Positions 8,874-64,000 of a stretch of DNA of 64,000 nt are shown here, in pieces; position 1 is the first letter of the stretch; every line of letters starts with the position of its first letter. The notes below the pieces were generated by a model, which was not told the DNA's origin, made no database searches, and worked only from the letters and a program-made list of their open reading frames with translations. Source of the stretch: Bacteroidaceae bacterium. Lineage in GTDB: Bacteria > Bacillota_I > Bacilli_A > RFN20 > CAG-826. The stretch is from NCBI GenBank assembly GCA_963657885.1, contig CAVKNZ010000001.1:55203-119202 (forward strand). The letters are read 5' to 3'. The position numbers and the translations under genes are program-made.

Positions 8874-9447
8874 TAGTTCAAATAAGTATTTGACAGTTGC
8901 TTTAGCAAAAAATGGTATTCTTTTCGACAAAACCTATTATGAGGCTTGGCAAAGACAAAGCGAGGTCATGGTTAGCGAAATCGATGCTATTTTAAAACGC
9001 AATAATTTAGTGAAAGAAGATCTCTCCGCCATAGTTGTTGGAGTTGGTCCTGGCTCATACACAGGTGTCCGTATTGCAATCACTATCGCTAAAATTATGG
9101 CTTATGCTTTAAAGATTAAATTATACAAAGTTAGTTCTTTATCATTATTAAAAGCTGGTAATTTACCAACAATCTGCTTATTTAACGCAAGAAGTGGTCG
9201 CTCTTATTTTGCAGTTTATGAAGGCGATAAAGCGATAGTCAATGATTGCATTTTAAATAACGACGAAGTTTTAAAATATATTGATGAACATCCATCTTAT
9301 TATCTATCAGGTGACACAAATGTTATTGGAAAAAGCAGCGTTGATTTTGATATTCCGTCTAACTTAGCTTTTTCACTTAAAGAAGAGAATTTAGTTCAAG
9401 ATATCTTTTCGCTTAACCCAATTTATTTAAAGGATCTTTTAAAATGA
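8854..9447 (+). CDS. tsaB: t6A biosynthesis protein TsaB (YeaZ, inactive Kae1 paralogue)
   Basis: 197 aa. LLLDSSNKYLTVALAKNG ... VGVGPGSYTGVRIAITIAK is typical of YeaZ. Overlaps tsaE by 20 nt. Confidence 0.85.
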   Translation: MYQLLLDSSNKYLTVALAKNGILFDKTYYEAWQRQSEVMVSEIDAILKRNNLVKEDLSAIVVGVGPGSYTGVRIAITIAKIMAYALKIKLYKVSSLSLLKAGNLPTICLFNARSGRSYFAVYEGDKAIVNDCILNNDEVLKYIDEHPSYYLSGDTNVIGKSSVDFDIPSNLAFSLKEENLVQDIFSLNPIYLKDLLK

Positions 9448-41765: not shown

Positions 41766-41788
41766 TATTTAAATATTAGTAAATTCTT

Positions 41789-41925
41789 ATTGGTGCATTT
41801 TGGTGCATTTTTTGGTGCAAATAACAGCATTTAATCTTACATCGCAATACAAAAATAACGATAATATCGAAGTAATTTAGCATATATATTTATTGGTGCA
41901 CTTTGGTGCATTTTTTGGTGTAAAT
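41789..41925. repeat. Two copies about 100 bp apart of a 33-34 bp element, each made of three tandem TGGTGCA heptamers spaced 10-13 bp, in the promoter region of the downstream AlbA_2 gene
   Basis: Copy 1 at 41789-41822: TTGGTGCATTTTGGTGCATTTTTTGGTGCAAAT. Copy 2 at 41892-41925: TTGGTGCACTTTGGTGCATTTTTTGGTGTAAAT. Gene ATG at 41969. Confidence 0.7.
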
Positions 41926-41968: not shown

Positions 41969-43393
41969 ATGGCCTTACCAACAAATATAAATACAATTCT
42001 AAACCCTAATATTGTCGAAAGCGTTCGCATTGAACTTAAAGAAGGCTTCAACGTTGAAAGTATTATGCATACAATATGTGCTTTCGCTAACGATATCGAT
42101 AATTTTTGTGGCGGTTACATCATCATCGGAATTAGCGATAAAAATGAAGTAATTGGTTTTCCTCGAGATAAATTTGATAGTTTACAAAAAGAAGTATTTA
42201 GATATTCAAAAAAATGCATAGAGCCATCATATGTTCCTCAAATTGAATTAGTTAACTATGACGATAAAGATGTCGTTGTTATTTGGTGTCCTTCTGGAGA
42301 AGAGAAGGCTTATAAATGCTACGAGCATGTTTTCAAAGAAAAGAAGGAAACAAGATATCTATGCTATATTCGTAAAGGATCTTTAACAGTTGTTGCTTCT
42401 AGAGAAGAAGAAAAAGAATTATATAATCTTGCTAGTTATACTCCTTTTGATGATCGCGTAAATTATAAATACGATTTAACTGTCATTAATCGAAATATTT
42501 TAAAAGACTATTTGATGGAAACTCAATCTCATCTATTGTCTAATTTTGATAATCAAAGCACTGAAGATTTGCTTTTAGATTTAAGAGTTATTGGAGGCCC
42601 TAAGGAGGATTATCGTCCAAAAAATATCGCTTTATTGATGTTTACTGATAAGCCTTCAAATTTTATTCCCTATTCTTATATAGAATTAACGATTTTAAAA
42701 GATAAAGAAGGGGACGAAATCATTGAAAAAACTTTTGATTCTCCCTTATACAAACAATATATCGATTGCATGGATTATATCAAAAATAAAATCATTGAAA
42801 AAAAGACAATTAAGGTCGAAGGAGATTTTAAATCGACTGTTGTTTATAACTACTCTTATGAAGTGCTTGAAGAAGTTATCGCCAATGCGATTTTGCATAA
42901 GTCATATCAAATAAATGAGCCAGTTTCTGTAAGAGTGGAATCGGACAAGATTGAAATCACCAATGTTCCGGGCTTTGATAGAACGATAAGCGACTCTTCT
43001 ATTCAAGAACTTAAACCTAAATCAAAACGCTACACCTCTCGTCGAATTGCTGAATTCTTAAAAGAATTAGGCATTGTCGAAGCTAAAAATACTGGTTATC
43101 CGCGCATCGTAAAACGAAGCAAAGAAAATGGCTCCCCCTTACCTATCATAGAAATGAATAAAGAACGTGATTATGTCACAGTTATCATTCCTATACATAA
43201 AGCTTTCTTAAACGAAAATTTATCATTACGGGACCGTATTATTGACTATTTAAATGAAAAAGATATGAGCAAGACTGAACTTGCTAATGCGCTTGGCTAT
43301 CCGCGAGTTACAAATTCTTTGACGTATCAGTTAAATAAGTTAATTGATGAAAAGAAGGTTGCTGTTCATAATCGAAAATATTATCTTTGTTAA
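41969..43393 (+). CDS. AlbA_2 (Schlafen-like, 'divergent AAA/AAA-4') domain protein with HATPase_c_4 domain and C-terminal winged HTH; putative transcriptional regulator / 'ATP-binding protein'
   Basis: 474 aa. N-terminal ESVRIELKEGFNVESIMHTICAFANDIDNFCGGYIIIGISDKNEVIGF (AlbA_2). Central EEVIANAILHKSYQINEPVSVRVESDKIEITNVPGF (HATPase_c_4-like). C-terminal HTH (MSKTELANALGYPRVTNSLTYQLNKLIDEKKV). Confidence 0.7.
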   Translation: MALPTNINTILNPNIVESVRIELKEGFNVESIMHTICAFANDIDNFCGGYIIIGISDKNEVIGFPRDKFDSLQKEVFRYSKKCIEPSYVPQIELVNYDDKDVVVIWCPSGEEKAYKCYEHVFKEKKETRYLCYIRKGSLTVVASREEEKELYNLASYTPFDDRVNYKYDLTVINRNILKDYLMETQSHLLSNFDNQSTEDLLLDLRVIGGPKEDYRPKNIALLMFTDKPSNFIPYSYIELTILKDKEGDEIIEKTFDSPLYKQYIDCMDYIKNKIIEKKTIKVEGDFKSTVVYNYSYEVLEEVIANAILHKSYQINEPVSVRVESDKIEITNVPGFDRTISDSSIQELKPKSKRYTSRRIAEFLKELGIVEAKNTGYPRIVKRSKENGSPLPIIEMNKERDYVTVIIPIHKAFLNENLSLRDRIIDYLNEKDMSKTELANALGYPRVTNSLTYQLNKLIDEKKVAVHNRKYYLC

Positions 43394-50291: not shown

Positions 50292-51665
50292 TTATTTTTT
50301 GAAATAAATATCATCGCCGTCAAAGCGGTATTTCATTTTGATTTTGTCGGTCAAAAAACCATTTATTGAGGCAAAACCAAAGCCTTTTATATCAATTTCT
50401 TTAATTGCTTTTATTTTTGCAATTTCTTCTTTTATTAGTTCATCATCTAATTTGTTTTGTAGATATTTAACTTCGATAATGTCATAGCCATTCTCTTTCT
50501 TTATAGCTATATCGAATTCTCCGTTTTTCTTATTTATTGCATCATCGTAATAGTAAGAGCCAACATTATAGATTCCTTTTAATGTTCTATTTTTAATTAA
50601 AAATGAAATGTATTGCTTCACAATATTTTCAAATCTAAAGGAGATGAATGTATTGATGCTTTTTTCGATGTAGGTTTCATAAAAAACTTCTTTCCCTAAA
50701 AGGTTAATAATGTTTTCTTTTCCATAAATATAAGTATAGTAAAATCTTAGAACATTATTTGATAGAGAATAAGATATTTTTTTATTGTCGTTTATTCGAT
50801 TTATTGGAACATTTTCTTCGATGAATTCCATTTCGAATAGATTGTTTAATTGCTTGCTTAATAAGCCGTTTTGCTTATAATGCAGTTCATTTTCTAATTG
50901 TCGATATTTGATTTTCCCGTTTCCTATTATTTTGAATATAGTTTCATAATTAAGTTTACTAGAAAGATCGCTTGTATAATTTTGACTTGCATAGTTATAG
51001 ACGGAACTTAAATTATTTAAAAGTGTCATGCATATATTTTCTTTTAGAGTTTTGCTTTCATCTAATTGAGCTAAGATGTATGGTGAACCGCCAAACACTG
51101 AATAAAAGGCAACCTTATCGTAATTAGATAAGTGAGGATAAAATTCACTCGCAGATAGATAATCGAATTCTTTCAAATTGATGATAGTTTTAAATCGTCC
51201 ATACATTGGATTCTTATCTTTTATTAAAGTTTTCATCATGCCGATGTTTGAGCCAGAAAGGATGATATTTAGATTTTTTGTATAATTAGCTAATAAATTT
51301 TGAAAAAGTGAATCTAGTTCATCCCCATTATTTCTTACATATAGATAAGGGAATTCATCTAAGGCAATCACGATGTGTTTATTTAATGTGTTCAAATAAT
51401 TAAATAAAGAAAAGAGCGAATCAAAGCTGATGTTTGATGGGACGATATTATATTGAGACAACAATTTAGCTAATTCATCTATGTTATCTTTCAATGTTGA
51501 TTTTAAGCATTCAAAATGAACAAATGTTAAACCTGATTGCTTTAATGCTTCATCGATTAATAGGCTTTTACCAACGCGACGATTTCCATAGATTAAAACA
51601 TGATTAGAAGGCTCATTTAGAGTATTTTTAATTGCTTGAATTTCTTCTTTTCTTCCGATGAACAT
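50292..51665 (-). CDS. AAA+ 'archaeal-type' ATPase (Arch_ATPase, PF01637-like) with C-terminal DUF234; 'ATP-binding protein'
   Basis: 457 aa. FIGRKEEIQAIKNTL...HVLIYGNRRVGKSLLIDE (Walker A) ... IVIALDEFPYL (Walker B). The C-terminal 120 aa (GEFDIAIKKENGYDIIEVKY) look DUF234-like. Confidence 0.7.
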   Translation of the reverse strand: MFIGRKEEIQAIKNTLNEPSNHVLIYGNRRVGKSLLIDEALKQSGLTFVHFECLKSTLKDNIDELAKLLSQYNIVPSNISFDSLFSLFNYLNTLNKHIVIALDEFPYLYVRNNGDELDSLFQNLLANYTKNLNIILSGSNIGMMKTLIKDKNPMYGRFKTIINLKEFDYLSASEFYPHLSNYDKVAFYSVFGGSPYILAQLDESKTLKENICMTLLNNLSSVYNYASQNYTSDLSSKLNYETIFKIIGNGKIKYRQLENELHYKQNGLLSKQLNNLFEMEFIEENVPINRINDNKKISYSLSNNVLRFYYTYIYGKENIINLLGKEVFYETYIEKSINTFISFRFENIVKQYISFLIKNRTLKGIYNVGSYYYDDAINKKNGEFDIAIKKENGYDIIEVKYLQNKLDDELIKEEIAKIKAIKEIDIKGFGFASINGFLTDKIKMKYRFDGDDIYFKK

Positions 51666-58259: not shown

Positions 58260-59497
58260 ATGATATACAAAAGAACAATATTAGAATCAGTTATAAATTC
58301 AATAAATGAATATCCTGTAACCTTAATAACAGGAGCACGGCAAGTTGGTAAAACCACTTTAGTCTCATACTTTTTTGATAAAGGAATCGTTATCTATCTT
58401 TAGACGATTCTTCTTTATGTTATGAAGCTAAATCAAATCCAAAACTATTCTTAGAAAAGTATGGTAATCATTTGATTATTGACGAAATTCAAAAGGCTAA
58501 GGAATTATTTCCAGAAATTGAGCATTTAGTTAACAAAAAAAGATTAGAAGAAGGTTCTATAAAAGCTAATGGGATGTTTATTCTAACTGGCAGTCAAAAA
58601 TTTTCTTTTATGCGAGGCGTAAGTGAATCTCTTTCCGGAAGAGTAGGAATTATTGAATTAGAACCTTTATCTCAAGCGGAAATAAGAGGATGGAATGAAA
58701 TTCCTTTTATAGCTAATAACAATGAACTATTTAAAAAAAGTGAAGAAAGAGAATTAACTAATGACCAGTTATATTTATCCATACTTAGAGGCTTTTATCC
58801 TGCTAGATGGGAAATAGAAGATAAACCAATTCATAATTTTTTCTCTAACTATGTTAAGACTTATATTGAAAGAGACGTAGTTGAGTTAATCGCAATTAGA
58901 GATTTAACTAAATTTGAAAACTTTTTAAAGGCTATCGCTTCGTTAACTGGCGAAGAATATAACCCTAATGCAATTTCAAAAACAATCGGAATTGATAACA
59001 AAACCGTTGATGCGTGGCTTAATATTTTGATCGCTTTAAACTTAGTAACAATCTTAAATCCTTATTACGAAGATTCAATAAATAAGCGGATTGTCAAAAG
59101 CAAAAAGCTTTATTTCAACGATACCGGATTAGCTTGTTATTTAATTGGCGTCGATTCAGTAAGAACACTCAAAGCCTCATCTTTTAAAGGAAGGCTCGTG
59201 GAAACTTACATTCATAACGAAATTAGAAAATCGTTTATCAATAACTCAGTTTCCGCCCAGATGTTTTTCTATCGCGATAACAATCAAAACGAAATTGATT
59301 TTATCATCCTTAAAGATGGTGAATTATCGCTTGTAGAAGCAAAGTCTGGAAAACAATATGGTGTTAATGATGTAAAAAGTTTCAGACAATTAACAAATAG
59401 TAAATACAATATCGCTGGGCAGTGCATCGTTTGTAGAACAGATGATATTTATCGAATCAATTCATTGGTTTATGCTTATCCGATAAAATGCATCTAA
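58260..59497 (+). pseudogene. Frameshifted AAA_14/DUF4143 ATPase paralogue (1-nt deletion in a T-run near 58398-58401)
   Basis: Frame A from ATG 58260 encodes MIYKRTILESVINSINEYPVTLITGARQVGKTTLVSYFFDKGIVIY (Walker A) and hits TAG at 58401. Frame +2 continues YLSLDDSSLCYEAKSNPKLFLEKYGNHLIIDEIQKAKE... to 59497. It is co-linear with the intact paralogue at 62635-63873 (YVTLDDYSNRLL...LIIDEIQKAVE). Confidence 0.55.
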
Positions 59498-59521
59498 ATA
59501 TTAATTAAATGTAAAACGATA

Positions 59522-59563
59522 AAATGTCGCTTTATTTGTCGCTTTAAATGTCGCTTTATTTTT
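59522..59563. repeat. 42-bp element: three 12-bp-period tandem TGTCGCTTTA units. Direct-repeat copy A, abutting the stop of the AlbA_2 gene
   Basis: AAATGTCGCTTTATTTGTCGCTTTAAATGTCGCTTTATTTTT. Identical copy at 60957-61000 on the other side of the gene. Confidence 0.75.
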
Positions 59564-60911
59564 ATATGCTTTTAAGAACTTGCCAACTGCCTGTTTTCTT
59601 TGAACCTGTTCTACTGACCGCCCCGATTGAAATAAGTTTTTTTAAGCATCTTTGAACTGTTCTTCGATTGATATTTCCTTTTTCGGCGAGTTCTATCTGC
59701 GTTTGTTTAGGGTTTTCTTTTAAAGAGTTTAAAACCTTGGTTTCAGTTTTAGATAATTTATCTTTTATGGTATTATCGGTTTTTTTATTTCCACTTTTTC
59801 CTTTTCGATAGAAGATAAAGGAAAAGCCATCGCTATAAGTTGTATAACTTGTTTTGACGTTATTGGCTTTGCAAGCTGCATATACCTTTTTAAATCCGCT
59901 TCCAAACATCTCCACATCTTTGCATTTATATAATGTATTGAGGATCAATTTGTTTCTAGGTTGGCTTTTTCTATTTGAATTAACAAACATATCAGGATTT
60001 AAATTCGCTGGGAATTCACCAGGATTATAGATTTCTATCATCGTGGGTGTTATATCTATTTCGTTTTCAGTTACTCCTCGATAATTCGCGTGAGCGAATG
60101 AATTAACAACTATTTCTCTTATCGCTTCAACTGGTACTTCTGGGATTTCTTTTCTTGCGATGTTTTCACCTAGTTCGACCCGCCAATCCATTTTCTCTTT
60201 TATGTATGAATTGGCATAACGTATAAGGTTATAGATGTTATCTTCCACTCTTCTTATATCTGAGAAATTAATCCTTTCATCGCTAACGTATGTGGCGATT
60301 TTTAATACGACAGGTTTTTTGCTCGAGAAAAGATAAAACCCCGCGTTAGTTAAAAAGTTATTTTCTAATAAGCCTAGACCAGTTAATAGAGCTTCTTCAT
60401 CATATATGCTCAATTCATCTAATCGACCGCAGGAAGTAGCTTCATCGTAAAATGAACGCAAAGCGATATGATCAACACTTTCTAAGCCGTATTTAGTTAA
60501 ATTGTTTTCCCATTTTGATGAAAAGTCTGTTGAAAACAAAATGCTTCTTAGCTCATCAGGAGTCATTCTTTCCGATCTATCAACAACTCGTTTGTAATAT
60601 ATTCCAAAGGATGAGTATGGTTTTTCTGAGCCGTTAAAATCAACTTTTATGCACATCTTATTATCTAGCGTTACTTCTTTGATTGTTGGATAAATTATTG
60701 GCAGTATAGCTTCTTTGCAAGTTCTAGCGATATCATCTAAGGTATGAGAGCCAATTTCTTGGCCACATACATCACCATTGGGCTTAACTCCAAAATAAAG
60801 CGTGCCAGATCCATGCTTATTTAAAATCGCGCATATATCATCCATTGCTTCTTTTATTTCACTCGTGGATTTTTTAAATTCAAGTTGTTCGTTTTCTCGT
60901 CCTAAGTTCAT
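59562..60911 (-). CDS. AlbA_2 (Schlafen-like) + HATPase_c_4 + C-terminal winged-HTH protein; paralogue of 41969-43393
   Basis: 449 aa. ENEQLEFKKSTSEIKEAMDDICAILNKHGSGTLYFGVKPNGDVCGQEIG (AlbA_2). REIVVNSFAHANYRGVTENEIDITPTMIEIYNPGEF (HATPase_c_4-like). C-terminal HTH TQIELAEKGNINRRTVQRCLKKLISIGAV. SD AGGAGA upstream. Confidence 0.7.
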   Translation of the reverse strand: MNLGRENEQLEFKKSTSEIKEAMDDICAILNKHGSGTLYFGVKPNGDVCGQEIGSHTLDDIARTCKEAILPIIYPTIKEVTLDNKMCIKVDFNGSEKPYSSFGIYYKRVVDRSERMTPDELRSILFSTDFSSKWENNLTKYGLESVDHIALRSFYDEATSCGRLDELSIYDEEALLTGLGLLENNFLTNAGFYLFSSKKPVVLKIATYVSDERINFSDIRRVEDNIYNLIRYANSYIKEKMDWRVELGENIARKEIPEVPVEAIREIVVNSFAHANYRGVTENEIDITPTMIEIYNPGEFPANLNPDMFVNSNRKSQPRNKLILNTLYKCKDVEMFGSGFKKVYAACKANNVKTSYTTYSDGFSFIFYRKGKSGNKKTDNTIKDKLSKTETKVLNSLKENPKQTQIELAEKGNINRRTVQRCLKKLISIGAVSRTGSKKTGSWQVLKSI

Positions 60912-60956
60912 ATTAAACTGTTCTCTCCTGCATTTATTATAGCGCGATGAAAAGAA

Positions 60957-61000
60957 AAATGTCGCTTTATTTGTCGCTTTAAATGTCGCTTTATTTTTTC
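60957..61000. repeat. Direct-repeat copy B of the 3x TGTCGCTTTA element, about 45 bp upstream of the AlbA_2 gene start (its promoter region)
   Basis: AAATGTCGCTTTATTTGTCGCTTTAAATGTCGCTTTATTTTT, identical to 59522-59563 in the same orientation. Confidence 0.75.
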
Positions 61001-61080: not shown

Positions 61081-62436
61081 TTAAAAGTCGTCGTTATTAT
61101 GCTCTAAGGCAAAAGTTAGATAATGGGGAATAGTAATTATTCCGTTTTCTTCTCCGATGTTATATTCGCCTATTTTTATCAATTTCACTTTCCCATAATG
61201 ATCAGGATGTTTCATGATGGTTTTGCTCGATTTTGTATTTCCGGTTGTAGATTTAGCTTCAATTAGAGTTGCATAGCCATCATAAGATATAACAAAATCA
61301 ATTTCCAAACCGCTTTCTTTCGCGTAATAGTAAGCGTCAATATCTGCTTTATATAGCGAATCGAAAACTATAGCTTCATAGATTGCACCTTTGCCTTGAC
61401 CTAAATTGTTATTTAATATCGCTCTTATTGTATCTATTCCATACATCGATGTGACTATTCCTATGTCTGTTGGAAATAGTTTAAATTGTGACGTTATTGC
61501 TTCACCGAATAATGGTAGAGAAGGCACTTCAACGTTGTAGACTTTTTTAACAATATGAGCTTGTCTTAAATATTCGATTGCGTCATTTTTATCATATTGT
61601 TTGCCAGTTTGAATTTTGCTGACAATATATCTTTTATTTTCTTTAGCTAAAAAGACTGGCATTAAATCGAAAGCATTTTCGATTCTAGCCATCTCACTTT
61701 TGTTAAAAATAGGCTTACCATCCTTACTTTTTCTTCTTCCGAAATCTGTTTTCATTTCAAAAACGATATTGTTAAGGACTTTATAAGCCTCTTTTATGCT
61801 CTTTGTTTCTAAATATGTGGCAATTACTTTTGGGAAGCCACCTATTGAAGCGTATTTTAAAAATAATTCTTTATATAAATTGTGTATGTTAGGATCTATT
61901 TTTTCTCTATTAGCAAAACAATTTATTAGATATTCAATTTGCTTTTCATCATAGCCATTTGCCCAAAGAAATTCTTCGAAGTCCATTGTTTTCATCTCAT
62001 ATATATCTTCTGAACCTGTTGGCGCGGGGCTATTATCACCTTTTACGTAGCTGTTTATGCCTAAAAGCGATCCGCTGGCGATGACAGAATAACGGCCATC
62101 TTCTTTGAATGATTTCAAAGACAATCTCGCTTTTGGACAGTCTTGTATTTCATCGAAAAATATCAACGTTGTCTCTGGTTTTATATTAGAATGCGGAAAT
62201 CTCAATGAAATATTTGATATGAGATCGTCGACATCTAAACTTTTTTCAAAATCAGCGGAATATTCTGGGTGCGTCCAAAAATTTATCATTATTAGTTTGA
62301 GATTATTTCGCTTAGCGAATTCCTTAATGCTTTCAGTTTTTCCACATTGCCTAATGCCGACAATCAAAGCAGGTATTTTGTCTTTTTTCTTTAACCAAGC
62401 ATCTAACTGCCTGTCTATTTTTCTACGGTAATACAT
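61081..62436 (-). CDS. AAA_14 ATPase with C-terminal DUF4143 domain ('ATP-binding protein')
   Basis: 451 aa. Walker A ALIVGIRQCGKTES. Walker B TLIFFDEIQD. C-terminal DUF4143-like region (KLFPTDIGIVTSMYG). Confidence 0.7.
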   Translation of the reverse strand: MYYRRKIDRQLDAWLKKKDKIPALIVGIRQCGKTESIKEFAKRNNLKLIMINFWTHPEYSADFEKSLDVDDLISNISLRFPHSNIKPETTLIFFDEIQDCPKARLSLKSFKEDGRYSVIASGSLLGINSYVKGDNSPAPTGSEDIYEMKTMDFEEFLWANGYDEKQIEYLINCFANREKIDPNIHNLYKELFLKYASIGGFPKVIATYLETKSIKEAYKVLNNIVFEMKTDFGRRKSKDGKPIFNKSEMARIENAFDLMPVFLAKENKRYIVSKIQTGKQYDKNDAIEYLRQAHIVKKVYNVEVPSLPLFGEAITSQFKLFPTDIGIVTSMYGIDTIRAILNNNLGQGKGAIYEAIVFDSLYKADIDAYYYAKESGLEIDFVISYDGYATLIEAKSTTGNTKSSKTIMKHPDHYGKVKLIKIGEYNIGEENGIITIPHYLTFALEHNNDDF

Positions 62437-62490
62437 TTAGCGAACCCTTTCTGAAAGTATTAGTTTTCTACTTAAAATATAAGAAAAACG

Positions 62491-62607
62491 AAAGGACTTT
62501 TCAAGCAATTTGTAAGAAATTCCGAGGGACTTTTCAGCCTGTTTGTAAGAATTTCCGAGCGACTTTCGACCCACTTTGTAAGAAATTCCGAGGGACTTTT
62601 TACTCTG
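62491..62607. repeat. About 3.5 tandem copies of a 33-bp direct repeat in the promoter region of the 61081-62436 gene
   Basis: Full units at 62509-62541 (TTTGTAAGAAATTCCGAGGGACTTTTCAGCCTG), 62542-62574 (TTTGTAAGAATTTCCGAGCGACTTTCGACCCAC) and 62575-62607 (TTTGTAAGAAATTCCGAGGGACTTTTTACTCTG). Partial unit at 62491-62508. Contiguous, no spacers. Confidence 0.75.
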
Positions 62608-62634: not shown

Positions 62635-63873
62635 TTAAATACTTTTCACTGGTACAATTAGCACATTTTCTGACAATGCACTTAAAGATTCAGAGGTGCA
62701 GACAATGCATCCTCTTCCTAATTCACAATGGCTACATTCTAGTTCTTTGAAGCTTGAAACATCGTTTAACGTATGCGTATCTCCGTATTTAGCTTCAACT
62801 GCATATAGCTTTCCTTGTTTAATGAAAACTAAATCAATTTCATGTTGATAGTAGTCACGGTAATAGTAAAATTGGGTTTCATCGCCGGCGTTATCGTAAC
62901 TCTTTTTGATTTCGTTTATGACAAATGTTTCAAATAATCTTCCTTTTAGGAAACTACGTGCTAACGTTTGCTTAGAATCTATACCAAGAAGATAGCAAGC
63001 AACCCCGGTGTCAAAGAAGTAAACTTTTGGAGTTCTTACAACTCTTTTAGTCCAGGAATATTCATAGTAGGGATAAATTAGATGGATGATTCCAGTTTTT
63101 ATCATTATGGAAATCCAAGTTTTTATACTCGTTGAAGATATGCCAATTTGCTTGGCGAGATTATCATAGTTTAGCTCTTGGCCTGTTAATGAGGCTATAA
63201 GGACTAAGAGATTATAAAATTTTGTTTCATCTTTTAATTCGATTAACTCTCTTACATCTTTTTGCAAATATGTTGAAACATAAGATGAATAAAAAATAGA
63301 TCTTTTTAAACCTTCATCATCGAATAATTCAGGCAGTTGCCCTTTTAGGATTAAATCAAGGACATCGCTTTGACTAAAAGATAGATGTTCACTTCTTTGA
63401 TGTATTTTTATTGGATCTGGTAAAAATGGAATATTATCTCTAGAAAAAATTTCGCTCATTGATAAAGTCGACATTTCTAATAAAGCAGCTCTTCCAGCGA
63501 GCGACTCTTTAGCTCTTTCCAATAAATCTTTGCGGCTTGAGCCAGAAAGAATATACATTCCGTTCGCAGCTTTATTGCCTTCAAGTCGGCGTTTTTCATT
63601 TACGATAAATTCGATTTCTTCAAATAACTCTACTGCCTTTTGGATTTCATCGATAATTAATGGAGCAGGGTGATTTGCTAAAAATGATCTAGGATCGCTT
63701 TGAGCTAACAATCTATTAGAATAATCATCCAATGTAACATAACAGAAGCCTTGCTTTTCATATATTTCAGTCAACAACGTCGTTTTACCAACTTGTCTAG
63801 GTCCGGTTAAAATCACGCAAGGGAAGTGCTTTAGCGAATAATCAATTACTTCTTTTATATGCCTTTTTATCAT
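62635..63873 (-). CDS. AAA_14 ATPase with C-terminal DUF4143 domain ('ATP-binding protein'); intact paralogue of the frameshifted 58260-59497 copy
   Basis: 412 aa. Walker A CVILTGPRQVGKTTLL. Walker B LIIDEIQKAVE. DUF4143-like C-terminus with KVYFFDTGVACYLLGI. Confidence 0.75.
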   Translation of the reverse strand: MIKRHIKEVIDYSLKHFPCVILTGPRQVGKTTLLTEIYEKQGFCYVTLDDYSNRLLAQSDPRSFLANHPAPLIIDEIQKAVELFEEIEFIVNEKRRLEGNKAANGMYILSGSSRKDLLERAKESLAGRAALLEMSTLSMSEIFSRDNIPFLPDPIKIHQRSEHLSFSQSDVLDLILKGQLPELFDDEGLKRSIFYSSYVSTYLQKDVRELIELKDETKFYNLLVLIASLTGQELNYDNLAKQIGISSTSIKTWISIMIKTGIIHLIYPYYEYSWTKRVVRTPKVYFFDTGVACYLLGIDSKQTLARSFLKGRLFETFVINEIKKSYDNAGDETQFYYYRDYYQHEIDLVFIKQGKLYAVEAKYGDTHTLNDVSSFKELECSHCELGRGCIVCTSESLSALSENVLIVPVKSI

Positions 63874-63881
63874 TTTTCAAA

Positions 63882-63925
63882 CCTCAACTTCGGAATTTCC
63901 AAAGTTCAACTTCGGATTTTCATAA
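63882..63925. repeat. Two tandem copies of a 21-22-bp direct repeat (CAACTTCGGAWTTTC core) immediately upstream of the 62635-63873 gene
   Basis: TCAACTTCGGAATTTCCAAAG / TTCAACTTCGGATTTTCATAAG at 63882-63925. The window ends at 64000, so the array may be incomplete. Confidence 0.4.
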
Positions 63926-64000
63926 GTAGTATATTATTTTTTACCTTCAAAAGTGAAAAAATTCATCGCGATGTTAGTTAAAGACAGAGATGAATATTTC

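What the first reader, a model, noticed from the sequence alone, without database searches (positions are those of the whole stretch)
59522..61000. Identical 42-bp direct repeats (3x TGTCGCTTTA) bracket the 59562-60911 AlbA_2 gene exactly
One copy abuts the stop codon at 59522-59563. The other lies about 45 bp upstream of the start at 60957-61000, in the same orientation. Perfect flanking direct repeats around a single gene suggest a duplicative insertion, a site-specific-recombination cassette or a repeat-mediated gene-shuffling unit. The upstream copy may also act as the gene's operator.
Basis: seen in the sequence. Interest (0 to 1): 0.6.

Follow-up and report, generated by a model that had tools for sequence, protein, structure and literature searches.

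The report
Duplicated operator-like repeat array around a regulator gene
The two identical 43-bp repeats are real, but they look like copies of a short tandem DNA signal that this family of uncharacterised DNA-binding ATPase genes always carries at its promoter, and often a second time further downstream, rather than the ends of a mobile gene cassette.

Summary
A perfect 43-nt direct repeat lies at 59521-59563 and 60956-60998. Each copy holds three 12-nt units (TAAAGCGACAww on the gene's strand). The pair brackets the AlbA_2/HATPase_c_4/wHTH gene at 59562-60911(-).

The mobile-cassette reading is not supported. Eleven independent lineages of this gene family carry 2 to at least 7 of the same units (consensus TAAAGYGACAWW) directly upstream. 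They range from Mycoplasmopsis to gut Clostridia and Bacilli, and include a subfamily only 24% identical in protein. In the window's subfamily the last unit sits on the -35 hexamer.

Several orthologs carry a second array, antisense, inside the coding sequence. There it encodes "NVTx" repeats in a disordered linker, with codon-level conservation. The window gene has lost that internal array and instead has an exact copy of its promoter array abutting the stop codon.

The recognition helix of the wHTH is invariant across the family. The best reading is an autoregulatory operator array plus a relocated distal (auxiliary) operator. Protein binding and any function of the 3' copy are inferred, not shown. 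No recombinase lies nearby, and no close relatives exist for an empty-site test.

The parts
60956..60998 (-). Promoter-proximal array. It has three 12-nt units, TAAAGCGACA plus a 2-nt spacer on the - strand. On the + strand these read TGTCGCTTTA at 60960-60969, 60972-60981 and 60984-60993.
   Evidence: Homologous arrays lie upstream of orthologs in 11 lineages.
60936..60965 (-). Predicted sigma-70-type promoter. The -35 is GCGACA (60965-60960), which is the core of the last repeat unit. An 18-nt spacer follows, then the -10 TATAAT (60941-60936). The RBS AGGAGA lies upstream of the ATG at 60911.
   Evidence: 10 of 12 consensus positions match. The same geometry, with the last core 17-18 nt before TATAAT and 47-54 nt before the ATG, is seen in the orthologs.
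59562..60911 (-). Gene for a 449-aa protein. It has an N-terminal Schlafen-like AlbA_2 domain, a HATPase_c_4 domain with a histidine-kinase-like ATPase fold, a disordered linker (residues 372-384) and a C-terminal MarR/TrmB-like winged helix.
   Evidence: Pfam; AlphaFold model with pLDDT 84; Foldseek hits to 3LMM, Schlafen/SAMD9, histidine-kinase catalytic domains and MarR/SlyA.
59760..59798 (-). Linker-coding segment (about codons 372-384). Orthologs carry an antisense array of the same units here, encoding NVTx repeats. In the window the array is decayed (protein ...NKKTDNTIKDK...).
59521..59563 (-). Distal copy of the array: an exact 43-nt duplicate in the same orientation. It overlaps the stop codon by 2 nt. 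It is followed by no -10 box and no gene, only the 3' end of the convergent AAA_14/DUF4143 pseudogene (stop at 59497).

Best explanation
The 43-mer is a three-unit array of a family-specific cis-regulatory element (consensus TAAAGYGACAWW, 12-bp period). It belongs to the promoter of AlbA_2/HATPase_c_4/wHTH genes.

The copy at 60956-60998 is the gene's native promoter array. Its last unit supplies the -35 hexamer. The most likely binding protein is the gene's own product, through its C-terminal winged helix, giving autoregulation. This binding is inferred.

The copy at 59521-59563 is a second, distal array. Many orthologs have such a distal array about 1.1-1.2 kb downstream of the promoter array, antisense, embedded in the linker-coding sequence. 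The window gene has lost that internal array and carries an exact copy of the promoter array just past its stop codon.

I propose that the distal array acts as an auxiliary operator. It could cooperate with the promoter array by protein-mediated bridging or looping across the gene. Alternatively it could act as a bound-protein roadblock between the two convergent, terminator-less genes. Any function of the distal copy is inferred and is the weakest step.

What is shown: conservation, position, copy-number variation, and the DNA-level constraint on the internal arrays.

The confidence of 0.5 is for the whole chain. My estimates for the separate steps are about 0.85 that the upstream copy is a conserved cis-regulatory array, about 0.55 that it is read by the gene's own product, and about 0.35 that the 3' copy is functional.
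For: (1) Upstream arrays of 2 to at least 7 units, in the same orientation, with an 11-12-nt period and core GYGACA (GTGCCA in one lineage), occur in all 11 stand-alone lineages examined.
- Window subfamily: the window itself, L044, L045, L046, L047/48, L038-43, L071, and M. arginini L069.
- A subfamily 24% identical in protein: L022, L049-58, L059-68.
- Sources.

(2) In the window's subfamily the last core is 17-18 nt from the -10 box and 47-54 nt from the ATG.

(3) In 342 kb of fetched loci plus the window, every chain of at least 2 such units lies in one of four places: upstream of one of these genes, inside its linker, just after its stop, or in the two contig-end or locus-edge arrays L009 and L017, whose neighbouring gene could not be seen.

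(4) Internal antisense arrays at gene nt 1117-1156 occur in L046 (3 units), L047 (2) and L069 (4); L044 has one intact core there. The Val codon in these units is GTC in 13 of 14 cases, against 23% elsewhere (binomial 4.5e-8). The V and T columns have identical codons in all four orthologs in 4 of 4 cases, against 7 of 98 for conserved degenerate residues in the rest of the gene.

(5) 31 of 72 orthologs have at least 2 'VT' repeats in the linker. The linker is predicted to be disordered.

(6) Recognition-helix residues R417, T418 and R421 are invariant, and Q420 and the wing residues R434, G436, G441 and W443 are at least 90% conserved, across 48 sequences that include the distant subfamily.

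(7) The element travels with the gene across phyla. The AlbA_2 protein is 71% identical between the window and L047, while glyA is 55% identical. The only co-transferred DNA-binding protein is therefore the gene's own product.

(8) A second, about 21%-identical paralog in the same window (41969-43393) has its own motif (TTGGTGCA), also as two near-identical 3-unit arrays. A further paralog in L038 has AGGGCACATGAT arrays.

(9) Relatives embedded in type I R-M operons, without their own promoter, have no arrays.
Against: No binding experiment exists for any member, and nothing on the family's regulation was found in the searchable literature.

A distal array is not universal. L038, L045, L071, L049 and L059 show none.

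Only the window and L022 have the distal units outside the ORF and in direct orientation. The 3' copy could therefore be a neutral recent duplicate.

The core resembles a -35 hexamer, so RNA polymerase itself could be the main reader of the upstream array.

The motif variants (GCGACA, GTGACA, GTGCCA) do not visibly co-vary with the recognition helix.
Confidence: 0.5

Rival explanations
1. Mobile gene cassette. A circular [gene + one repeat] unit integrated into a resident copy of the repeat by site-specific or homologous (Campbell-type) recombination. The two 43-bp copies would then be attL/attR-like junctions, and the gene could excise again.
For: The direct repeats are perfect and sharply bounded, and they bracket a single gene exactly. 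The gene family is horizontally mobile: AlbA_2 is 71% identical against 55% for glyA. The gene lies in a cluster of candidate defence genes (three PDC-S01 matches). Arrays with no visible gene on the far side exist at L009 and L017 and could be empty sites. 43 bp is enough for rare RecA-dependent deletion.
Against: The repeat is the conserved promoter element of the gene in every ortholog, not an insertion-specific sequence. The seven other window-subfamily lineages examined show no 3' copy after the stop codon; L045's contig ends 19 nt after its stop, so little could be seen there. No integrase, recombinase or transposase lies within about 10 kb. The repeat has no inverted-repeat or hairpin architecture. 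The alternative location of the second array, inside the ORF and antisense with codon-level constraint, cannot be produced by cassette integration.
Confidence: 0.1
2. Non-functional by-product. The 3' copy is a recent, selectively neutral duplicate of the promoter array, or a relic of a rearrangement. Possible origins are template switching, gene conversion, or a tandem duplication of array plus gene followed by deletion. The upstream copy is still the conserved promoter element.
For: 43/43 identity suggests recency. The window protein ends ...VLKSI, two residues longer than P0002 and P0003, which end ...LK. This is consistent with a junction at or near the stop codon. Most orthologs manage without a 3' flanking copy. 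No -10 box and no gene follow it.
Against: A second array per gene recurs independently. Internal antisense arrays are under DNA-level constraint. L022 has units of its own motif after its stop codon. The other paralog in the window has two arrays 104 nt apart. The window gene has specifically lost the internal array that its relatives keep. The duplicated segment matches the array boundaries exactly.
Confidence: 0.25
3. The units are read by RNA polymerase or a host factor, not by the gene's product. They would be tandem -35-like (xxGACA) hexamers with A/T-rich UP-like spacers that form a strong or 'sliding' promoter. The 3' copy would be a stray or decoy.
For: The core GYGACA matches TTGACA at 4-5 of 6 positions. 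The last unit is at the correct 17-18-nt distance from TATAAT. The spacers are A/T-only.
Against: Only the last unit is in register with the -10 box. In L059 the units run into the spacer and -10 region. The GTGCCA and GGGCACATGAT variants are poor -35 boxes. Antisense arrays inside the ORF are conserved at the DNA level without a usable -10 box. The motif is specific to this gene family within 342 kb. Each paralog has its own motif.
Confidence: 0.12
4. Repeat-mediated switch. Recombination or slippage between or within the arrays turns the gene on and off. This would work by deletion between the direct copies in the window, by inversion between the upstream and internal antisense arrays in orthologs, or by changes in unit number.
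For: Unit number differs between near-identical strains: L038 has five TAAAGTGCCA units, and L042 has five plus one variant TAAAGTGTCA unit. Arrays break assemblies and scaffolds. The M. arginini homolog sits next to an hsdS shufflon with a tyrosine recombinase.
Against: Changes in unit number leave the spacing from the last unit to the -10 box constant. The 12-nt period keeps internal arrays in frame, so there is no classical phase-variation logic. The window has no recombinase nearby. No inverted or deleted variants were seen in the 24 redundant contigs of P0124 and P0202.
Confidence: 0.05

Closest known systems
Auxiliary operators and DNA looping in bacterial repressor systems (lac O1/O2, with O2 inside lacZ; gal OE/OI, with OI inside galE). 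From my own knowledge of textbook systems.
   Same: A primary site overlaps the promoter. A second copy of the same recognition sequence lies at a distance, in some cases inside the coding sequence.
   Different: Here each 'operator' is a tandem array of 2 to at least 7 direct 12-bp units rather than a palindrome. The distance is 1.1-1.4 kb. The distal site lies in the regulator's own gene or just after it. Neither binding nor looping has been shown.
Iterons and other direct-repeat sites bound by winged-helix proteins, such as plasmid Rep proteins, OmpR/PhoB boxes, and the centromere binder AspA (which appears among the fold matches, PDB 5k5q).
   Same: Short direct repeats at regular spacing, next to or overlapping a promoter, are read by a winged-helix domain. 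Copy number is variable. There are autoregulatory precedents.
   Different: The period is 12 bp, not about 11 or 22 bp. There is no replication origin or partition context. The protein also carries Schlafen-like and GHKL-like ATPase domains.
AlbA_2 (Schlafen-like)/HATPase_c_4 'putative DNA-binding' or 'RecG-like' proteins. The structural-genomics entry 3LMM (DIP2311 of Corynebacterium diphtheriae) is the only full-length solved relative.
   Same: The domain architecture and fold match. Homologs sit in type I R-M operons and next to candidate defence genes.
   Different: No function or DNA target has been reported for this family in the papers I could search. The repeat arrays described here are not part of any description I found.
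Integron gene cassettes (attC) and small integrative cassettes flanked by direct repeats.
   Same: A single gene is bracketed by identical short direct repeats in a region rich in accessory and defence-like genes.
   Different: There is no attC-type imperfect palindrome and no integrase. The gene has its own promoter. The repeat is the promoter element conserved in orthologs that lack any second flanking copy.

Membership tests
AlbA_2/HATPase_c_4/wHTH protein family | N-terminal SLFN_AlbA_2 domain (PF04326) | tested here: met
   E = 2.2e-18, residues 6-117. Schlafen and SAMD9 fold matches.
AlbA_2/HATPase_c_4/wHTH protein family | HATPase_c_4 domain (PF13749) followed by a C-terminal winged helix | tested here: met
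   PF13749 E = 2.1e-11; HTH_24 and MarR E = 3e-9 to 6e-8. Histidine-kinase catalytic-domain and MarR/SlyA fold matches.
Transcription-factor operator array (direct-repeat binding sites) | Repeated units at fixed spacing that overlap or abut the core promoter | tested here: met
   Three units with a 12-nt period; the last core is the -35, 18 nt before TATAAT.
Transcription-factor operator array (direct-repeat binding sites) | Conservation of motif and position across orthologs while the surrounding non-coding DNA is unrelated | tested here: met
   11 lineages; consensus TAAAGYGACAWW with G7, C9 and A10 invariant in 47 units.
Transcription-factor operator array (direct-repeat binding sites) | Specific binding by a cognate protein | not testable with these tools
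   Indirect only: the recognition helix is invariant, and the element co-transfers with the gene.
Auxiliary (distal) operator / looping system | A second copy of the recognition sequence at a distance from the promoter site, under selection | tested here: inconclusive
   Internal antisense arrays with codon-level constraint occur in 4 lineages. A 3' external copy occurs in the window and in L022. It is absent in 5 lineages. Cooperativity is untested.
Integron gene cassette | attC site: an imperfect inverted repeat able to fold as a hairpin at the cassette boundary | tested here: not met
   The repeat is made only of direct units. No inverted-repeat partner was found at the boundaries.
Integron gene cassette | Integron integrase and attI nearby; cassette usually promoterless | tested here: not met
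   No integrase or recombinase domain in the genes from 48 to 64 kb or just beyond. The gene has its own promoter.
Transposable element with target-site duplication | Terminal inverted repeats and a transposase, with short target-site duplications that are not conserved elsewhere | tested here: not met
   No terminal inverted repeats and no transposase. The 'duplication' is a motif conserved at orthologous promoters.
Simple-sequence contingency locus (phase-variable promoter or ORF) | Changes in repeat number alter the -35/-10 spacing or the reading frame | tested here: not met
   Unit number varies, but the distance from the last unit to the -10 box is constant, and the 12-nt unit keeps the internal arrays in frame.

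The most novel reading that the evidence does not exclude
AlbA_2/GHKL-like/wHTH proteins form a self-contained, horizontally travelling autoregulatory unit. The protein would bind 12-bp-period arrays at its promoter and at a second array written antisense into its own linker-coding sequence, so that the operator doubles as codons for NVTx repeats. In this genome the second array has been relocated to just after the stop codon. ATP-dependent dimerisation of the GHKL-like domain would bridge the two arrays and enclose the gene in a loop. This would be a previously undescribed regulatory architecture for a widespread, defence-island- and R-M-associated family of unknown function.
Probability: 0.3. 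Interest if true: 0.7.

Novelty: new variant of a known kind. Interest (0 to 1): 0.5.

Why it matters
AlbA_2/HATPase_c_4 proteins are very common in gut Firmicutes, mycoplasmas and many other bacteria. They sit in type I restriction operons and next to candidate defence genes, and no function is known for them.

A conserved, easily recognised DNA target gives the first concrete handle for experiments on the family: EMSA, DAP-seq and reporter fusions. The target is TAAAGYGACAWW arrays at the promoter, with paralog-specific variants.

The antisense arrays inside the ORF are a clean example of a coding sequence constrained by a DNA signal. The amino-acid repeat NVTx is probably a by-product of an operator.

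There is also a practical lesson. Perfect direct repeats around such genes should not be read as evidence of mobility. They also fragment short-k assemblies, which explains why many of these genes sit alone on roughly 1.5-kb contigs.

Tried and rejected
- **Whole-collection scans for the motif.** The genome-contig scan gave 13 chance hits and one real hit, L009. The metagenome-contig scan gave L017 and L022; the other hits were coding repeats in unrelated organisms. The viral-contig scan gave nothing relevant. The window's exact 43-mer was found nowhere else.
- **Empty-site test.** This was impossible. The AlbA_2, glyA and AAA proteins of the window are each the only member of their 90% cluster. 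The only other assembly of this organism (Logan SRR13434591, L015 and L016) breaks 30 nt into each repeat, as a k=31 graph must, so it is uninformative.
- **Exact look-up of the AlbA_2 protein's contig.** This failed twice.
- **The search for related loci in viral contigs.** No relatives were found.
- **Extended homology outside the 43 nt.** None was found.
- **Terminator function.** Rejected. There is no hairpin at either copy, and only one terminator-like site was found in 58.1-64 kb, inside the gene on the other strand.
- **Promoter function of the 3' copy.** Rejected. There is no -10 box at the right distance and no downstream gene.
- **Rfam and tRNA scans.** Nothing was found in the window.
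- **Recombinant 3' end of the gene.** The C-terminal part is more diverged (46-57% against 75-80%), but the same gradient holds among all orthologs, so there is no evidence for it.
- **Covariation between recognition helix and motif variant.** No signal with these few lineages.
- **Literature.** Nothing was found on the regulation or DNA targets of this family.
Full report
**Observation.** The window contains the 43-mer AAAATGTCGCTTTATTTGTCGCTTTAAATGTCGCTTTATTTTT twice, at 59521-59563 and 60956-60998. The copies are identical and in the same orientation. Shuffled sequence gives no matches. Each copy is three units with a 12-nt period. On the strand of the enclosed gene the units read TAAAGCGACA plus a two-base A/T spacer. 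Six of the seven exact TGTCGCTTTA 10-mers in the 64 kb lie in these two copies. Similarity ends abruptly at the 43 nt: flanks in register are 24-27% identical. The enclosed ORF, 59562-60911 on the minus strand, encodes a 449-aa protein with SLFN_AlbA_2, HATPase_c_4 and a C-terminal winged helix. One copy overlaps its stop codon by 2 nt. The other ends 44 nt before its ATG.

**Surroundings.** The gene lies among three AAA_14/DUF4143 genes: 58260-59497 on the plus strand, which is split by a frameshift, and 61081-62436 and 62635-63873 on the minus strand. The two intact ones match the PADLOC candidate defence family PDC-S01 at E = 1e-99 to 1e-116; the split copy was not scanned against PADLOC. 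Upstream are housekeeping genes (glnA, glyA). No integrase, recombinase or transposase domain was found in the genes from 48 kb to just past the end of the window. There is no Rfam family or tRNA in the window. The region has no intrinsic terminator between the convergent genes.

**The upstream copy is a conserved promoter element.** A consensus scan places a promoter with -35 GCGACA (60965-60960, the core of the last unit), an 18-nt spacer and -10 TATAAT (60941-60936). I collected homologous loci through the protein database, exact-protein look-ups, plasmid records and whole-collection motif scans.

- Every stand-alone homolog has the same kind of array directly upstream, in the same orientation.
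- The window's orthologs (57-76% protein identity) have the following unit counts:
  - L044: 2 units
  - L045: 5 units
  - L046: 4 units
  - L047/48: 3 units
  - L038-43: 5-6 units (core GTGCCA)
  - L071: at least 6 units, interrupted by a scaffold gap
  - Mycoplasmopsis arginini L069: 4 units
- In these loci the last core is 17-18 nt before TATAAT and 47-54 nt before the ATG.
- A subfamily only 24% identical to the window protein has GCGACAT arrays too: L022 with at least 4 units, and L049 and L059 with 3-4.
- Over 47 units the consensus is TAAAGYGACAWW, with G7, C9 and A10 invariant.
- Unit number differs between near-identical strains: L038 has five TAAAGTGCCA units, and L042 has five plus one variant TAAAGTGTCA unit.
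- In 342 kb of fetched DNA, chains of such units occur only next to or inside these genes, or in two contig-end or locus-edge arrays whose neighbour is unseen (L009, L017).
- Relatives that sit inside type I R-M operons without a promoter of their own have no arrays.

**A second array is a recurrent feature.** The same scan found arrays of the same unit on the antisense strand inside the coding sequence, at gene nt 1117-1156. L046 has 3 units, L047 has 2 and L069 has 4; L044 has one intact core there.

- On the sense strand the units read AAT GTC ACT nnn, that is N-V-T-x repeats. They lie in the linker between the ATPase-like domain and the winged helix.
- The AlphaFold model predicts this segment to be disordered: pLDDT is below 50 for residues 372-384, and the overall pLDDT is 84.
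- The constraint is on the DNA. The Val codon is GTC in 13 of 14 units, against 23% of Val codons elsewhere (binomial P = 4.5e-8).
- In a four-way codon alignment the V and T columns of the linker use identical codons in all four orthologs in 4 of 4 cases. Conserved degenerate residues in the rest of the gene do so in 7 of 98 cases.
- At the protein level, 45 of 72 alignable orthologs have at least one linker 'VT', and 31 have two or more, spaced four residues apart in the examples listed.
- The window gene has no such array; its linker reads KGKSGNKKTDNTIKDKL. Instead it carries the exact copy of its promoter array about 230 nt further on, just past the stop codon.
- L022 likewise has two units of its own motif after its stop, followed by a different GGTGACAT array.
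- Independently, a second paralog in the same window (41969-43393, about 21% identical, AlbA_2 + HATPase_c_4) has its own motif, TTGGTGCA. This too occurs as two near-identical three-unit arrays 104 nt apart, with the proximal one at the promoter.
- A further paralog in L038 has AGGGCACATGAT arrays.
- A distal array is not universal. L038, L045, L071, L049 and L059 lack one.

**Who reads the array?** This step is inferred.

- The element moves with the gene between very different hosts. AlbA_2 is 71% identical between the window and L047, while glyA is 55% identical. Homologs are named from Clostridia, Bacilli, Synergistota and Negativicutes and from Mycoplasmopsis.
- The only DNA-binding protein that moves with the element is the gene's own product.
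- In an alignment of 48 sequences spanning both subfamilies, the recognition-helix residues R417, T418 and R421 are invariant. Q420 and the wing residues R434, G436, G441 and W443 are at least 90% conserved. They are among the most conserved positions of the protein.
- The fold search matches the C-terminus to MarR/SlyA and to the centromere binder AspA, the middle to histidine-kinase catalytic (GHKL-type) domains, and the N-terminus to Schlafen and SAMD9 nucleic-acid-binding domains. The only full-length relative is the uncharacterised 3LMM.
- From general knowledge of GHKL ATPases, nucleotide-dependent dimerisation could bridge two arrays. This is speculation.

**Most likely mechanism.** The promoter array is an operator that overlaps the -35 and is bound by the gene's product, giving autoregulation. 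The distal array is an auxiliary site that cooperates with it, or acts as a bound-protein roadblock. In most relatives the distal array is inside the ORF. In this genome it has been relocated to the 3' end as a fresh copy of the promoter array. The shown steps are conservation, position, paralog-specific motifs, and DNA-level constraint on the internal arrays. The inferred steps are binding by the wHTH, the direction of regulation, and any function of the 3' copy.

**Rivals.**
- *Mobile cassette.* Disfavoured. The repeat is the native promoter element, orthologs lack a 3' copy, there is no recombinase or att-like structure, and internal antisense arrays cannot arise by integration. It is not excluded, because no empty site could be sought, and the only second assembly breaks in the repeats for purely technical reasons.
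- *Neutral recent duplication of the array.* This remains a serious alternative for the 3' copy alone.
- *Tandem -35/UP modules read by RNA polymerase.* This fits the upstream geometry but not the paralog-specific motifs or the constrained antisense arrays.
- *A repeat-mediated switch.* Unlikely. Changes in unit number preserve both the promoter spacing and the reading frame.

**Comparison with known systems.** The arrangement works like an operator plus an auxiliary operator (lac O2 and gal OI lie inside coding sequence), and like direct-repeat sites read by winged-helix proteins (iterons, OmpR/PhoB boxes). It is not an integron cassette or a transposon, because the defining features were tested and not met. 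I found no paper describing a DNA target or regulation for this protein family in the searchable library. That library is incomplete, so 'undescribed' is provisional.

**Verdict.** The repeat is real and non-random. The wider pattern is modestly novel and directly testable. That pattern is family-wide 12-bp arrays, paralog-specific motifs, and a second array often written antisense into the gene's own linker.

Noticed in passing
window 41788-41923 and gene 41969-43393 (+): A second, very distant AlbA_2 + HATPase_c_4 paralog (474 aa, about 21% identical to the finding's gene) has its own tandem motif. There are two near-identical three-unit arrays, ATTGGTGCATTTTGGTGCATTTTTTGGTGCAAA and ATTGGTGCACTTTGGTGCATTTTTTGGTGTAAA, 104 nt apart in direct orientation. 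The proximal array lies just before a TAATAT box and the ATG.
   Followed up: partly
window 62480-62600 and 63874-63927: The two intact AAA_14/DUF4143 (PADLOC PDC-S01) genes also have tandem direct repeats in their upstream regions. One set is 33 nt x 3.7 copies (AAGTCCCTCGGAATTTCTTACAAA core). The other is 22 nt x 2.2 copies (TCCGAAGTTGA core). Both motifs are confined to those spots in the window.
   Followed up: partly
window 58260-59497 (+): The AAA_14/DUF4143 gene convergent with the AlbA_2 gene is split into a 47-aa N-terminal ORF (58260-58403) and a 341-aa ORF (58472-59497). It is probably a frameshifted pseudogene. The same split is present in the independent Logan contig L015.
   Followed up: partly
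L069 / L070 (Mycoplasmopsis arginini NZ_LR215046 and NZ_LR215045); L072 (Francisella); L073 (Pseudanabaena): Homologs of this protein family sit inside type I restriction-modification loci. In M. arginini the gene lies directly upstream of hsdR, next to an hsdS shufflon with a tyrosine recombinase. In the Francisella plasmid it lies between hsdM and hsdS; in the Pseudanabaena plasmid it directly follows hsdM. In L070 the gene is broken into three ORFs.
   Followed up: partly
L038 7534-8931 (-) and its upstream region about 8932-9100: A neighbouring 465-aa AlbA_2/HATPase_c_4 paralog, convergent with the P0006 gene, has yet another 12-nt tandem motif (AGGGCACATGAT, about 5 units in two blocks) upstream of its start.
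   Followed up: no
L009 1-140 (Bacilli MAG CAKOSH010000004.1): An array of at least 7 TAAAGCGACAT units runs into the hairpin terminator of ruvB; the last unit forms part of the stem. The array points at the 3' end of ruvB. The other side of the array lies outside the fetched locus.
   Followed up: no
L015 / L016 (Logan SRR13434591) versus window: Both flanking genes of the finding are on record from this Logan assembly. The AlbA_2 protein itself is on record only from NCBI, although the roughly 1.45-kb inter-repeat contig should have contained the whole gene. The cause is unknown; the segment may be polymorphic or fragmented in that sample.
   Followed up: partly
window 50292-51665 (-): A further STAND-like ATPase (ATPase_2 + DUF234) lies about 8 kb from the finding. 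It adds to the concentration of defence-like NTPase genes at this end of the window.
   Followed up: no
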